NCBI GenBank assembly: GCA_964610875.1
Contig: CAZSWP010000005.1
Span: 1 to 64,000, forward strand
Reading direction: 5' to 3'
Origin: an uncultured archaeon
GTDB lineage: Archaea; Asgardarchaeota; Thorarchaeia; Thorarchaeales; Thorarchaeaceae
Length of the DNA: 64,000 bases
The notes beneath the pieces were generated by a model. It made no database searches and was not told where the DNA came from. It saw only the letters and a list, made by a program, of their open reading frames with translations. The position numbers were made by a program, and so were the translations under genes. Below, piece by piece: positions 32,541-40,738 of the stretch (its first letter is position 1; every line of letters starts with the position of its first letter).

Positions 32541-32972
32541 TTAATCCTCTTCCCGTTCATCATCAGAAGATTCGAGTTCTTCCCCTTCTTCCTCGTCAAG
32601 AAGATTATCCTCTTCTTCACCTTCTACACTAGAAGTTGTGATTCCTGCTGGAGTCATCTTCCAGATGTATAAATAACCCAGAAAGATGCTAAGTAGAGCT
32701 AAGAGGATTACTATTGCAACAGCACCACCAGCACTAAACCAAGCTATAGGATTTATCCAGAGCTCATTTGTAGGTGTGTCCAAAAAAACTCGCTGGACCC
32801 ACATTGGTACAGTAAATGCCAGCGGCAAACAAATTAGAATCAAAAGTATAATTGATGCAATAATCTCAGCAGTATATATGAGAAGTCTCTTCAAAGTGCT
32901 GTCAACAACTTTTCTGGCTTTGGACAATTTACTCGCTCCGATTGCTGAGGTCATCCATACGCCTTTTAACAT
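32541..32972 (-). CDS. Two-TM membrane protein with acidic tail
   Basis: Two hydrophobic segments, E/D-rich C-terminus. Confidence 0.7.
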   Translation of the reverse strand: MLKGVWMTSAIGASKLSKARKVVDSTLKRLLIYTAEIIASIILLILICLPLAFTVPMWVQRVFLDTPTNELWINPIAWFSAGGAVAIVILLALLSIFLGYLYIWKMTPAGITTSSVEGEEEDNLLDEEEGEELESSDDEREED

Positions 32973-32980
32973 TTGCTAAC

Positions 32981-33083
32981 AAAAAATGAATCGGGGGGCT
33001 CACGAAAAGCAAGCATTTCGCCAGTGCCTGCGACAAACAGATGGATTTGAGAGAGATGTAGCGGATATATGTGAGCCCCGCAT
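32981..33083 (-). ncRNA. Putative structured small RNA 1
   Basis: Closing stem GGGGCTCAC/GTGAGCCCC (33071-79/32995-33003), GGAAAA+TATATATT promoter 33104-33117, U6 tail. Confidence 0.6.
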
Positions 33084-33179
33084 GTAATATAGAAACCTAT
33101 TGCAATATATATTTTCCTATGAGGTTATAATATAATCTATCCAATTTATAGTGGTTGTTCTACTGAAGCAATAATCATG

Positions 33180-33280
33180 AATAAGAGGAGCTGGGACCTG
33201 AAGGAGGAGAGAGAATAATTCTCGTAAGAGGAGATCTTACATGCGAGAGAGAAGAGAGTCTTGAGGTCCCCAGCTCTCTA
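33180..33280 (-). ncRNA. Putative structured small RNA 2
   Basis: Closing stem GAGCTGGGGACCT/AGGTCCCAGCTC, inner stem with UCUCC-containing loop, TTATATAC at 33300-33307. Confidence 0.6.
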
Positions 33281-33361
33281 TGGTATTATACTCATGTATG
33301 TATATAATACAATCTCGTGTGCTGATGGCTTTACTAGAAGTTGTTTATTTTATTGTGATTT

Positions 33362-33418
33362 TCGCAATAATATTCATGAAAATTGCGATACACACAAAAT
33401 TTATATAAATTTGTTGTG
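33362..33418. promoter_or_regulatory. Palindromic operator-like sites and TATA box between divergent sRNA promoters
   Basis: TCGCAAT-N13-ATTGCGA; AAATTTA-TA-TAAATTT centred on TTTATATA. Confidence 0.45.
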
Positions 33419-33429
33419 GAATATGACAT

Positions 33430-33575
33430 GAATGCGTGTGGAGGATCGCCAAGCTTGTCTTCGACAAGCCCCCTCCTGAAAATAACCTGACAGCACTTTT
33501 TGTGCACACACATCCTCTCCTCCTCAAACAAGCAACCAAGCGAAATTTTCTGGCGGTCCTCGCACCTTTCTACTC
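33430..33575 (+). ncRNA. Putative structured small RNA 3
   Basis: Closing stem GAGGATCGCCA/TGGCGGTCCTC (G.U favours + strand), hairpins GCTTGTC-TTC-GACAAGC and GCAC-T5-GTGC, TTTATATA at 33400. Confidence 0.6.
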
Positions 33576-33588
33576 TTTATTACTACAA

Positions 33589-33969
33589 TCAAGTGACTAT
33601 TTCAAACAGCAATGGAAAACTACCATGAGAATAAATCTCCATAAGGAATGGGTTCTTTGATTCAGCCACTTTTTTCCATAGGTCATTTTCTCTCAGATAA
33701 TACGATATGTCGGTACTGTCATTCCTTATCTCAACAACAGATCCTTGAGGAAGAGATTCTAAGTCACTCACATCTAGAAGTTCTTCGTTACTGTTTGGCA
33801 TATTGGATGGTTTAGATAGAAAAACACGAAAGATATAGTCATCAGAGTGAATGAGTAATGCGACATGTGGCCGGTTTAACGAATCCCATTTCCGCGGGAT
33901 AGGTGGAGTGCGACATGTATAAGCTCCCATAGCAGATTGCATTATCAATAACGTGCTTTCATCAATCAT
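33589..33969 (-). CDS. Hypothetical protein
   Basis: 126-aa ORF with GAGGT SD; no recognised motif. Confidence 0.5.
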   Translation of the reverse strand: MIDESTLLIMQSAMGAYTCRTPPIPRKWDSLNRPHVALLIHSDDYIFRVFLSKPSNMPNSNEELLDVSDLESLPQGSVVEIRNDSTDISYYLRENDLWKKVAESKNPFLMEIYSHGSFPLLFEIVT

Positions 33970-38902: not shown

Positions 38903-40738
38903 CTATTTCTGTCTCATTAATACATAGCCACCAACAAGGATGACCACTGCAGCACCGACTGCACCAGCAACAATTGCCATTGTGAAGTCGACTGGTTCTT
39001 CAGTAGTCGGACCAGTATCGGTGTCTTGTGTCCTATCAAGACCGTAGAAGTAATTCTCGTTGTAGGTCAGCTCTGTGAACTCACCGGCAACATAGTCACT
39101 ACAGTAGAATGGACCGGATGTAATCATTTCATCTGGATCAGTTGGGTCTGGATTCCAGAGATTCCATCCATCAAGACCAATGTCTGTAAAGATATGCTTT
39201 GGTAGGATTGGTTTGTAAGACACAGTGTGCAGATGCCAGAATGATTCAGAGCTAAATTCAACAACCAATTGATAGGTTGTTGGTGCGAAAGCGGCTGTCA
39301 TATCAGTCAAATCTGCACCGTATGGATTACCAGGAGCATCACGGAAGTAGTTCAATGAGAATGCTACATCTGCAGCGGTAAGTGGTGTTCCATCAGACCA
39401 AGTAGCGTTCTGAACCATATCAAATGTAAATCGGGTGTAACCCTCAGGTACATCATCATTGTCGTCACTGGTTTCAGCAATGTATGACTCAGCAAGCCAC
39501 ATTACATCTGTACCATCTGGGGCAATGCCAAATAAGCCATCCCACATCATGTTGTTCACGTTTGCCGCATATGCAGATGAACTGACCATGAAGTTGAATG
39601 AGTCAATGTCAAGTGGATTGCTCCAGCGGAATGTTCCACCGAATGGACCACCCTCAGACTCCTTCAAGTGAACCTTGTAGTTGGTCCACCAACCTGGTAC
39701 ACCATCACTTACATCGTTAACGTAACCTTCGAACTTATCAGTTCTGTAAGCTGAAAGAAGGACGTTCTCATAACAGATGATCATTGGTGATTGATATATC
39801 CAGACCTTCTGCATCTCGATAGCTGCCTCATATACATCATCATAGTCTGTTGCGTAGAGGAGCTGGTTTCTCCAGGAATCATAAGTGTCGTTTCTGAAGT
39901 TGGGGAAGTTCCAGTAGGGTTCGTCTGCATATTCTGACCAGAATTCATATGCAAGCCAGTCAACATCAAATGAACCGAATGAAGATCCAAGGAATACGAT
40001 ATCGTAGTCTCCGTGGAAGTACAATCTGTTCAGATACTCGTAGAAATCAGTTGGTGTTGAACTTGCATCAATGTGTAATGCATTGAGTGCTTCAGCGACC
40101 TTCTGACCGACTTCAATAGCAATGCTTGACGACTGAGCACATTCTACAAGAATATCGAATGCGTTACCATGTGGATCATTTCTGAATCCAGTAACTTCAT
40201 CAATATCGAAACCACTGTCATTCAACATCTGGTTACCAAGTAGAACATTTGCCTCATAGTAAGTCTCAGTCAACTGTTTCTCAATTGAGAATGGGTTTAC
40301 CTGTGGTACAACGCTGTCCTGTGGGAATGATAGACCATCCCACACGTCGTCTGAGATTGCTTCTTTGTCAACTGCGAATGCAAGTGCACGTCGTAAAACA
40401 GTATAGTTTAACGGGTTTTTGGCTGTGTTAATTGTAACATATCCATAACCATTACGAAGCACATTCGCAACATCAATGTTTTCGGCTTCTTCCAGAGCTG
40501 GTAAGAAGCTTGGATCAACCATATCGCCAATAAGGTCGATCTCATTATTTTGTAGCGCTAGTACTTGCTGATCGTCCTGCGTGATTACGTTGAAGACTAG
40601 TTTGTCAATATATGGACCACTTTTGGAATGACCCGGTAAAGTAGTCTGGGCATTAACAAACATAGGTGAAATAGCCATCAACATAAAAGCAGCAGTTAAC
40701 GATAAGGCAAGTGCTCTTTTAGCACGACTGCTAGCCAT
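38903..40738 (-). CDS. Peptide/nickel ABC transporter substrate-binding protein (family 5), with signal peptide and C-terminal TM anchor
   Basis: LRRALAFAVDK, WSDGTPLTAADVAFS, SGPF; circularly permuted order; C-terminal TM + basic tail. Confidence 0.9.
   Translation of the reverse strand: MASSRAKRALALSLTAAFMLMAISPMFVNAQTTLPGHSKSGPYIDKLVFNVITQDDQQVLALQNNEIDLIGDMVDPSFLPALEEAENIDVANVLRNGYGYVTINTAKNPLNYTVLRRALAFAVDKEAISDDVWDGLSFPQDSVVPQVNPFSIEKQLTETYYEANVLLGNQMLNDSGFDIDEVTGFRNDPHGNAFDILVECAQSSSIAIEVGQKVAEALNALHIDASSTPTDFYEYLNRLYFHGDYDIVFLGSSFGSFDVDWLAYEFWSEYADEPYWNFPNFRNDTYDSWRNQLLYATDYDDVYEAAIEMQKVWIYQSPMIICYENVLLSAYRTDKFEGYVNDVSDGVPGWWTNYKVHLKESEGGPFGGTFRWSNPLDIDSFNFMVSSSAYAANVNNMMWDGLFGIAPDGTDVMWLAESYIAETSDDNDDVPEGYTRFTFDMVQNATWSDGTPLTAADVAFSLNYFRDAPGNPYGADLTDMTAAFAPTTYQLVVEFSSESFWHLHTVSYKPILPKHIFTDIGLDGWNLWNPDPTDPDEMITSGPFYCSDYVAGEFTELTYNENYFYGLDRTQDTDTGPTTEEPVDFTMAIVAGAVGAAVVILVGGYVLMRQK

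What the first reader, a model, noticed from the sequence alone, without database searches (positions are those of the whole stretch)
32980..33575. Cluster of three promoter-bearing structured small RNAs with anti-Shine-Dalgarno-like loops
Seen: the ~600-nt gap without a credible CDS holds three GC-rich islands of 100-140 nt in AT-rich DNA. Each has 5' and 3' ends that pair into a 9-13 bp closing stem, a TATA box ~25-30 nt upstream (33104-11 and 33300-07 on minus; 33400-07 on plus), a pyrimidine tail, and unpaired UC-rich loops (RNA1 ACAUCUCUCUCAAA; RNA2 CUCUCUUCUCUC, UCUCC, UCUCUCUCCUCCUUC; RNA3 CCCCUCC, ACAUCCUCUCCUCCUCAAA). RNA1 and RNA3 share ACAUC..UCUC..CUCAAA and GCGAAAU...UUUUC just before the 3' stem strand, suggesting paralogy. 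Established: bacterial sRNAs use C-rich loops to pair with SD sequences. Inference: this is a family of trans-acting, RBS-occluding sRNAs or protein-sponge RNAs in an Asgard archaeon. Local SDs are GGAG/GAGAG-rich, e.g. AAGGAGAUAGAGAG before the ABC binding-protein gene at 40738. I do not recognise an Rfam family.
Basis: partly seen in the sequence, partly recalled or inferred. Interest (0 to 1): 0.85.

Follow-up and report, generated by a model that had tools for sequence, protein, structure and literature searches.

The report
Three clustered CU-rich small RNA genes
A gene-free gap in this Thorarchaeota (Asgard archaeon) genome holds three separately promoted small RNA genes, conserved at the same spot across the family and absent from RNA catalogues; each uses an end-to-end stem to hold open a pyrimidine-rich loop that contains the ribosome's own mRNA-docking sequence, so they probably control translation, though no target was found.

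Summary
Window 32978-33575 carries three structured RNA genes: RNA1 and RNA2 on the minus strand, RNA3 on the plus strand. Each has a TATA box, a closing stem supported by covariation, and a G-poor, unpaired C/U-rich interior. Covariance models find one copy per genome, in the same order and orientation between orf143 and orf126. Hits in the Thorarchaeota family: RNA3 44/86 genomes, RNA2 44/86, RNA1 16/86. Neither RNA2 nor RNA3 was found in 125 other Asgard genomes. Rfam has no match, and the element is not a repeat. RNA1 is not a leader of orf143: an oligo-T run and a conserved orf143 promoter follow it. RNA2 and RNA3 carry CCUCCU, the 3' end of the family's 16S rRNA.

Function remains inferred. 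The tracts can pair with many Shine-Dalgarno regions. However, I found no extended target, no rRNA target and no conserved mRNA target; the best hit, aIF2-alpha, is not conserved in relatives. No RNA-seq run is available. Masking of ribosome-binding sites is my best guess (about 0.4). A protein-binding RNA or RNP is the main rival.

The scan has already reported this same cluster in other Thorarchaeota genomes, with the same conclusion.

The parts
32978..33085 (-). RNA1 gene (about 105 nt): closing stem, CU-rich interior, oligo-T end
   Evidence: Model R3 hit at 32991-33083, 82 bits. Homologues occur in genera g8 and g9, with weaker hits in g2, g5 and g7 at the same position.
33071..33079 (-). 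RNA1 closing stem, 5' strand (GGGGCUCAC); pairs with 32995-33003
   Evidence: three pairs covary among 7 sequences. U-G pairs fix the strand.
33043..33064 (-). RNA1 conserved unpaired tract CCGCUACAUCUCUCUCAAAUCC
   Evidence: Invariant columns in A8. P(unpaired) 0.77.
32981..32986 (-). Oligo-T run after the RNA1 stem (likely terminator)
   Evidence: T4-T6 runs follow the stem in most of 12 homologues.
32960..32971 (-). Conserved BRE/TATA-like box (GCAAnnTTTAAAGG type) of orf143, downstream of RNA1
   Evidence: It shows that orf143 has its own promoter, so RNA1 is not its leader.
33104..33111 (-). TATA box of RNA1
   Evidence: An AT-rich TATA block is conserved in g8 and g9.
33175..33282 (-). 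RNA2 gene (about 105 nt)
   Evidence: Model R2 hit at 33172-33296, 60 bits. 44/86 family genomes; 0/125 other Asgard genomes.
33264..33279 (-). RNA2 closing stem, 5' strand; pairs with 33184-33199
   Evidence: All 13 pairs show changes on both sides; 85.9% of cells paired against 69% in shuffles.
33200..33217 (-). RNA2 near-invariant tract UAUUCUCUCUCCUCCUUC (contains CCUCCU)
   Evidence: Alignments A5 and A7. P(unpaired) 0.89.
33243..33258 (-). RNA2 second CU element CUCUCUUCUCUCUCGC
   Evidence: UUCUCUCUC is conserved in A7.
33300..33307 (-). TATA box of RNA2 (ATATAATA block invariant in g1, g8 and g9)
33353..33367 (.). Palindrome TTGTGATTTTCGCAA between the divergent RNA2 and RNA3 promoters
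33383..33397 (+). Second copy of the palindrome (TTGCGATACACACAA), abutting the RNA3 TATA
   Evidence: TTGnGA..TCRCAA lies directly before the TATA in nearly all of 31 homologues.
33400..33409 (+). TATA box of RNA3
33428..33575 (+). RNA3 gene (about 145 nt)
   Evidence: Model R1 hit at 33433-33572, 99.8 bits. One copy per genome in 44/86 family genomes and 13/16 genera. 0/125 other Asgard genomes.
33434..33450 (+). RNA3 closing stem, 5' strand; pairs with 33553-33566
   Evidence: 13 of 14 pairs show changes on both sides; 96.9% of cells paired.
33468..33492 (+). RNA3 5' CU element (GCCCCCUCCUGAAAAUAACCUGACA)
   Evidence: CUCCCUCCUGAAAUCCUGAU is conserved in A3.
33508..33544 (+). RNA3 main conserved single strand ACACAUCCUCUCCUCCUCAAACAAGCAACCAAGCGAA
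   Evidence: Invariant columns in A1 and A3. P(unpaired) 0.89.
33589..33969 (-). orf126: family-restricted beta-rich protein, convergent with RNA3 (neighbour; any link is unproven)
32541..32972 (-). orf143: small membrane protein downstream of RNA1 (neighbour; true start probably the TTG near 32927)

Best explanation
The gap holds three sibling genes for stable small non-coding RNAs, restricted to one Thorarchaeota family. Each is transcribed from its own TATA promoter. RNA3 is divergent from RNA2 and RNA1, and its promoter carries a palindromic operator-like site. Each RNA folds so that its 5' and 3' ends form a GC-rich helix, which holds a 60-100 nt, G-poor, C/U-rich interior single-stranded. 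My best guess at mechanism is that they act in trans by base pairing. The exposed tracts (CUCUCCUCCU in RNA2 and RNA3, which includes the 16S anti-Shine-Dalgarno CCUCCU, and CAUCUCUCUC in RNA1) would pair with purine-rich ribosome-binding regions of mRNAs and compete with the 30S subunit, lowering translation of many Shine-Dalgarno-led genes. Shown: the genes, promoter elements, structure, strand, conservation and phyletic range. Inferred: transcription itself, the trans action, and the targets. I put the genes being real at about 0.9; the confidence below is for the mechanism.
For: Conservation and structure:
- One copy per genome at a syntenic site, in the same order and orientation in at least 6 genera.
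- Stem covariation well above shuffled and slid controls, with G-U pairs that fix the strand.
- TATA boxes conserved in relatives at 21-34 nt before the stems.
- RNA1 is followed by oligo-T and then by the orf143 promoter, so each RNA is a separate transcription unit.

The tracts look built for pairing:
- They are the most conserved part of each RNA (17-22 invariant nt).
- They are predicted unpaired (0.89 against about 0.5) and the interiors are only 12% G.
- The 16S rRNA of relatives ends in GGAUCACCUCCU, and family genes use GGAGG(U) 7-9 nt before the AUG. RNA2 and RNA3 therefore carry an exact copy of the anti-SD.
- Predicted duplexes of -18 kcal/mol or better occur at 124-205 start regions against 25-64 internal control regions.
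- A conserved U-run precedes the 3' stem strand, as at Sm/Lsm sites.

Precedents: CcsR 'cuckoo' RNAs carry CCUCCUCCC anti-SD loops and occur in clusters (PMC8034643). M. mazei sRNA41 masks ribosome-binding sites (PMC5867862).
Against: - No transcript data could be obtained.
- The excess of start-region duplexes is matched by the anti-SD itself, and my start-codon choice favoured SD sites.
- 9-mer matches are barely enriched before ORFs: 18% against 15% for a reversed control.
- Contiguous pairing runs of 11 or more are only 1.3-1.7 times the reversed-seed control.
- No extended antisense site exists in the genome.
- The best single candidate, the aIF2-alpha RBS at -31.9 kcal/mol, is not conserved in 18 relatives.
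- An 'anti-RBS including AUG' reading finds no matching genes.
- Invariance extends to non-CU sequence (CAAGCAACC, AGCGAAC) that SD pairing does not explain.
- RNA1 lacks CCUCC.
Confidence: 0.4

Rival explanations
1. Protein-binding RNAs: a sponge or RNP scaffold. The several C/U-rich motifs in each RNA, held single-stranded by the terminal helix, would bind and titrate a pyrimidine-specific or 16S-3'-end-recognising protein, or form a stable particle. The partner could be one of the lineage-specific neighbours, such as orf126.
For: - Two or three CU elements per RNA across three RNAs give multivalency.
- Long invariant stretches include non-CU sequence.
- No mRNA or rRNA target was found.
- The overall shape, a terminal stem plus a pyrimidine-rich internal loop, resembles Y RNAs.
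- orf126 has the same phyletic range (25/26 family genomes against 0/125 others) and sits next to RNA3 wherever both are found.
- Genus g3 lacks both RNA3 and orf126 (0/17 each).
- In Rhodobacter, the small protein encoded beside the CcsR cluster binds those RNAs (PMC8034643).
Against: - No candidate protein is identified.
- orf126 has no Pfam match and no fold match.
- No TROVE/Ro gene is present.
- The joint absence in g3 is a single event at one locus.
- The whole neighbourhood (Mrp, HAD) is syntenic too, so adjacency is weak evidence.
Confidence: 0.28
2. Cis-acting elements: structured 5' leaders or processed parts of the orf143 transcript (RNA2 and RNA1), or a 3' or antisense element of orf126 (RNA3), rather than free-standing RNAs.
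For: RNA1 ends 18-60 nt before the orf143 coding region in all genera that have it. RNA3 ends 17-185 nt from the orf126 stop codon, in convergent orientation.
Against: - Each RNA has its own conserved TATA box.
- An oligo-T run and then a conserved BRE/TATA box for orf143 lie between RNA1 and the coding region.
- RNA3 is on the strand opposite orf126 and does not overlap it.
- In genus g3 an RNA2-like gene persists without orf126.
Confidence: 0.07
3. Guide or housekeeping RNAs of a known class (C/D box, H/ACA, Y RNA, or a fragment of SRP or RNase P RNA) too diverged for Rfam to detect.
For: The RNAs are single-copy and conserved across the family. RNA3 has two CUGA motifs.
Against: - No Rfam hit even at E<=10 beyond noise.
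- No RUGAUGA box on either strand.
- Complementarity to 16S and 23S rRNA is no better than for shuffled cores.
- No Ro/TROVE gene.
- Restriction to one family argues against a universal housekeeping role.
Confidence: 0.04
4. Not RNA genes: a mobile-element remnant, small-ORF genes, or spacer DNA that merely looks structured.
For: Several 40-74 codon ORFs overlap the islands.
Against: - No other copy in the genome.
- Indels are not in threes, hairpins are inserted, and compensatory stem changes occur.
- No Pfam match for the two overlapping ORFs scanned.
- Conserved at one locus across at least 13 genera.
Confidence: 0.02

Closest known systems
CcsR / 'cuckoo' RNAs of Alphaproteobacteria (Rfam ar14 group; PMC8034643, PMC4615179)
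   Same: Clusters of homologous small RNAs. They display a CCUCCUCCC-type anti-Shine-Dalgarno motif in unpaired regions, sit at a conserved intergenic site, and lie next to a small lineage-typical protein gene.
   Different: The host is bacterial. In CcsR the motif sits in the loops of two short hairpins, whereas here it lies in one large loop closed by the RNA's own ends. CcsR RNAs are processed from a UTR of the DUF1127 gene, whereas here each RNA has its own promoter and one is divergent. There is no DUF1127 neighbour and no Rfam match.
C-rich-loop sRNAs of Firmicutes that mask ribosome-binding sites (RsaE/RoxS; streptococcal csRNAs) - from my own knowledge
   Same: Exposed C/U-rich seeds complementary to GGAGG. 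Sibling copies are common. The seed is the most conserved part.
   Different: The seeds here are much longer (17-22 invariant nt) and alternate C and U. The architecture differs. There is no sequence or Rfam relationship. Action here is untested.
Methanosarcina mazei sRNA41 and sRNA154 (archaeal trans-acting sRNAs; review PMC5867862)
   Same: Archaeal intergenic sRNAs proposed or shown to repress translation by masking ribosome-binding sites.
   Different: The phylum differs and there is no detectable homology. The M. mazei RNAs have identified targets and expression data; these have neither.
Y RNAs (eukaryotes, some bacteria) - from my own knowledge
   Same: About 100 nt. The 5' and 3' ends pair into a long stem that encloses a large pyrimidine-rich internal loop, and the 3' end is U-rich.
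   Different: No Ro60/TROVE gene in this genome. No Rfam Y_RNA match. No conserved bulged-C Ro site was identified.

Membership tests
Any Rfam 15 family | Score at or above the family's gathering threshold | tested here: not met
   No hits in the whole window at gathering thresholds. The best hits in 32800-33750 have E of 1.7-9.9 at 13-20 bits, against cut-offs of 37-99.
CcsR / cuckoo RNAs (ar14) | Two hairpins, each with CCUCCUCCC in the loop | tested here: not met
   The CU tracts lie in one large interior closed by the terminal stem. The motif is CUCUCCUCCU, not CCUCCUCCC.
CcsR / cuckoo RNAs (ar14) | Adjacent DUF1127 protein gene (CIN1 context) | tested here: not met
   The flanking orf143 and orf126 have no Pfam match.
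CcsR / cuckoo RNAs (ar14) | Clustered sibling copies | tested here: met
   Three related genes lie within 600 nt, though each has its own promoter.
C/D box sRNA | Box C (RUGAUGA) and box D (CUGA) near the paired ends | tested here: not met
   No RUGAUGA on either strand of 32960-33600. CUGA occurs only inside RNA3.
Y RNA | Ro60 (TROVE) partner encoded in the genome | tested here: not met
   PF05731 was not found in G000 (95% complete), while the positive controls were detected.
Y RNA | Terminal stem enclosing a pyrimidine-rich loop | tested here: met
   This is a resemblance of shape only.
MITE / repeat element | Many copies per genome | tested here: not met
   Only the locus itself matches in 3.75 Mb. 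Each model finds one hit per genome.
Trans-acting RBS-masking sRNA (functional class) | Discrete transcript, and pairing with ribosome-binding sites that reduces translation | not testable with these tools
   No RNA runs hold the locus. In silico pairing is possible but not specific.

The most novel reading that the evidence does not exclude
The three RNAs are not ordinary mRNA-specific regulators. Instead they mimic the 16S rRNA 3' end (a helix followed by or enclosing CCUCCU-type single strands) and form a lineage-specific RNP, possibly with orf126. This RNP would globally set the level of Shine-Dalgarno-dependent initiation, or titrate a factor that reads the 16S 3' end, under control of the factor that binds the conserved TTGCGA-N-TCGCAA operator at the RNA3 promoter. 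That would be a translation-control system so far unknown in archaea, in the lineage closest to eukaryotes.
Probability: 0.12. Interest if true: 0.8.

Novelty: new variant of a known kind. Interest (0 to 1): 0.6.

Why it matters
I found no described small regulatory RNA of Asgard archaea in the papers searched; their RNA biology is essentially known only from genome sequence. These three RNAs have strong comparative support, defined promoters and ends, and an obvious hypothesis to test: an exposed copy of the anti-Shine-Dalgarno sequence. If they do mask ribosome-binding sites, anti-SD sRNA control of translation would have arisen independently in the archaeal lineage nearest to eukaryotes. 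If they bind protein instead, they would define a new RNP. The covariance models also give annotators a way to label these loci, which are currently blank in Thorarchaeota genomes.

Tried and rejected
- Rfam at gathering and at E<=10: nothing. tRNA/tmRNA scan: nothing.
- Repeat/MITE reading: rejected, single copy.
- Expression: no RNA holder is listed for the locus, only three DNA metagenome holder runs from two studies (microbial mat and sediment). Expression therefore could not be tested, and read laying was not used.
- rRNA target: the best duplexes of the four conserved cores with 16S and 23S of two relatives are no better than shuffled cores. The window's own genome has no 16S assembled.
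- Long antisense target: the 13-mer GAGGAGGAGAGGA with up to 1 mismatch occurs 11 times elsewhere in the genome, with no pattern. A 19/20 match at C1:126675 lies antisense inside a 755-codon ORF, so I treat it as chance.
- 9-mer seed matches before ORFs: 18% against 15% for the control.
- Contiguous pairing runs: 1.3-1.7 times the reversed seeds.
- Duplex ranking of 3434 crude gene starts: the top hits are a functional mix (aIF2-alpha, uL2, Pop5, AFOR, an SBP, a beta-helix protein, Cas4). The aIF2-alpha site is not conserved in relatives.
- 'Anti-SD plus anti-AUG' reading: no matching genes above control.
- Alternative pairing or triplex between the RNA3 5' stem strand and its CU tract: the stem strand varies with compensation in the 3' strand while the tract stays fixed, so this is unsupported.
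- RNA1 as the orf143 leader: rejected.
- orf126 identity: no Pfam match; a good model (pLDDT 87) but no fold match (Foldseek E>=0.3; best VIA Z 3.8; Atlas TM<=0.5).
- A protein-pattern scan of genome contigs with orf126 found nothing, and the alignment was too diverse to scan with.
- The C50 gap with similar palindromes is not conserved in 40 relatives.
- No literature on these RNAs was found.

Full report
WHAT IS THERE

The 616-nt gap between orf143 (32541-32972, minus strand) and orf126 (33589-33969, minus strand) contains three islands of 47-53% G+C, separated by spacers of 22-32%.
- RNA1: 9 bp
- RNA2: about 12 bp
- RNA3: 14 bp

Folding z-scores are -1.6, -3.1 and -4.5 respectively. TATA-like boxes lie 21-34 nt before each stem. 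The whole window has no Rfam match at gathering thresholds, the locus (32800-33750) shows only noise at E<=10, and the window has no tRNA. The sequence occurs once in the 3.75-Mb assembly.

The organism is a member of the Thorarchaeota. The RNA3 core 22-mer hits only MAGs titled Thorarchaeota or Promethearchaeota, plus one labelled 'uncultured archaeon'.

CONSERVATION

BLAST against relatives first picked up the 3' half of RNA3 in many genera, and RNA1 in one genus. I then built three covariance models.

| Model | RNA | Family genomes hit | Genera hit | Other Asgard genomes hit |
|---|---|---|---|---|
| R1 | RNA3 | 44/86, one hit each | 13/16 | 0/125 |
| R2 | RNA2 | 44/86 | 10/16 | 0/125 |
| R3 | RNA1 | 16/86 | 8/16 (strong in g1, g8, g9; weak in g2, g5, g7) | not searched |

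R2 also hits genera that R1 misses (g2, g3, g4).

Wherever several RNAs are found, the layout is the same as in the window: orf143 <- RNA1 <- RNA2 | RNA3 -> <- orf126. Mrp and the HAD hydrolase lie outside this block.

STRUCTURE AND STRAND

Only the closing stems vary, and they vary by compensation.
- RNA3: 13 of 14 stem pairs show changes on both sides, and 96.9% of cells are paired, against 84% in shuffles and 28-61% when the partner is slid.
- RNA2: all 13 pairs show double changes, with 85.9% paired against 69% in shuffles.
- RNA1: three pairs covary among seven sequences.

These alignments were fitted to the models, which favours the stems. However, the independent MAFFT/RNAalifold runs gave the same stems for RNA3 and RNA2. 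Frequent G-U and U-G pairs fix the transcribed strands as proposed.

The interiors are the opposite of the stems: nearly invariant in sequence, 12% G, and predicted unpaired (0.77-0.89 against about 0.5 for the rest). The conserved cores are:
- RNA3: CUCCCUCCUGAAAUCCUGAU and ACACAUCCUCUCCUCCUCAAGCAACCAAAGCGAAC
- RNA2: UUCUCUCUC and UUCUCUCUCCUCCUUCC
- RNA1: CCGCUACAUCUCUCUCAAAUCC

Minimal RNA3 versions of about 100 nt (genus g6) lack all inner hairpins. Other genera insert hairpins inside the CU tract without losing the flanking CCUCC. A U-run precedes the 3' stem strand in all three RNAs.

The RNA3 model weakly recognises RNA2 (19 bits) and RNA1 (8 bits) on the correct strand. That is consistent with distant paralogy.

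SEPARATE TRANSCRIPTION UNITS

The TATA blocks are conserved. RNA1 ends 18-60 nt before orf143, which raised the possibility that it is a leader. However, the interval holds a T4-T6 run in most genera, followed by a conserved GCAAnnTTTAAAGG box, which I read as the BRE/TATA of orf143. Alignment of the protein N-termini also moves the orf143 start to about 32927. RNA3 converges on orf126.

A palindrome, TTGYGA-N2-5-TCRCAA, abuts the RNA3 TATA in almost every genus and occurs twice in the window. This suggests that a specific factor regulates RNA3.

FUNCTION

The 16S rRNA of relatives ends in GGAUCACCUCCU, and family genes show GGAGG(U) 7-9 nt before the AUG. RNA2 and RNA3 therefore expose an exact anti-SD hexamer, extended by CUCU. 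RNA1 has no CCUCC.

I tried several ways to find what the tracts pair with. All failed or were non-specific:
- rRNA gives duplexes no better than shuffled cores.
- There is no extended antisense site in the genome.
- 9-mer matches before ORFs run at 18%, against 15% for a reversed control.
- Strong predicted duplexes are 3-5 times more frequent at start regions than inside genes, but so are duplexes with the anti-SD itself, and my gene starts were chosen by SD strength.
- The top hits have mixed functions.
- The best single hit, the aIF2-alpha RBS, is not conserved in 18 relatives.
- Reading the tracts as anti-(SD + spacer + AUG) finds no matching genes.
- No RNA-seq run holds the locus.

RBS masking therefore remains an inference from anatomy and from precedent: CcsR 'cuckoo' RNAs (PMC8034643) and M. 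mazei sRNA41 (PMC5867862). The long invariant stretches, which include non-CU sequence, together with the multivalency and the lack of targets, keep a protein-binding or RNP role alive.

orf126 is a candidate partner only by association:
- It has the same phyletic range as the RNAs: 25/26 family genomes against 0/125 others, and 56/86 family genomes at orthologue stringency.
- It is always next to RNA3 where both are found.
- It and RNA3 are both missing from genus g3. That is one event at one locus.
- It folds confidently (pLDDT 87) into a beta-rich domain that matches nothing solved or in the Atlas.

COMPARISON AND NOVELTY

These RNAs work most like anti-SD sRNA clusters (CcsR/cuckoo, RsaE/RoxS, csRNAs, sRNA41), and they are shaped most like Y RNAs. 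They are members of none of these:
- no Rfam match
- a different way of displaying the motif
- no DUF1127 neighbour
- no Ro gene
- no C/D boxes

I class them as a new variant of a known kind: a lineage-specific triad of closed-loop CU-rich sRNAs.

Earlier agents of this scan reported the same cluster in other Thorarchaeota genomes, with the same verdict. I re-derived this independently on this window. New here:
- the evidence that RNA1 is not a leader
- the operator at the RNA3 promoter
- the orf126 co-distribution
- several negative target tests

Noticed in passing
window 33353-33367 and 33383-33397: The palindrome TTGYGA-N2-5-TCRCAA occurs twice between the divergent RNA2 and RNA3 promoters. 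The second copy abuts the RNA3 TATA, and this is conserved in nearly all genera. It is probably a transcription-factor site. Only 4 strict sites exist in the genome.
   Followed up: partly
G000:C50:1831-2266 (L004:1190-1625): A 436-nt gap between convergent genes holds three similar palindromes and TATA-like boxes. Its minus strand folds with z -2.9. It may be another ncRNA gene with the same promoter type, but it is not conserved in 40 relatives.
   Followed up: partly
G000:C3:138785, C4:15394, C34 end, C76 end: A repeated element end (..CCTAGACATGTTTCAGGAGGGGGTTATATAC..) breaks two contigs. Fifteen nt of it are complementary to the window-specific form of the RNA3 5' CU element (33468-33483). 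The reversed-seed control gives similar matches, so this is probably chance.
   Followed up: partly
window 32925-32972: orf143 probably starts at the TTG near 32927 (MSKARKVVDS, matching relatives' MSSAKKAVDS), not at the ATG at 32972. A GGAG lies 9 nt upstream, and the gene's own TATA-like box is at 32960-32971.
   Followed up: partly
window 33589-33969 (-): orf126 is a 126-aa beta-rich protein restricted to this Thorarchaeota family. It has an invariant Cys and an RPHVA motif, a distant paralogue in each genome (for example G000:C3:2170-2409), a confident model, and no Pfam or fold match.
   Followed up: yes
L079 (G004 16S 3' end), L077 (G019), L078 (G008): The 16S rRNA genes of relatives carry insertions. 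G004 has about 30 nt inserted between helix 45 and the AUCACCUCCU tail. In G019 the 16S model match runs into unrelated hairpins just after GUAGCGG. In G008 the 16S match spans 2411 nt for a 1478-position model. These may be introns or expansion segments.
   Followed up: no
window 33222-33245; L051/L053/L060/L041 RNA3: The window's RNA2 has an extra 6-bp hairpin that g8 and g9 lack. RNA3 of genera g9, g8 and g5 carries 20-40 nt hairpins inserted inside the CU tract, flanked by duplicated CCUCC. Earlier scan notes report tRNA-type introns in other Thorarchaeota sRNA genes. I did not test these inserts for a bulge-helix-bulge fold.
   Followed up: no
   Followed up: yes
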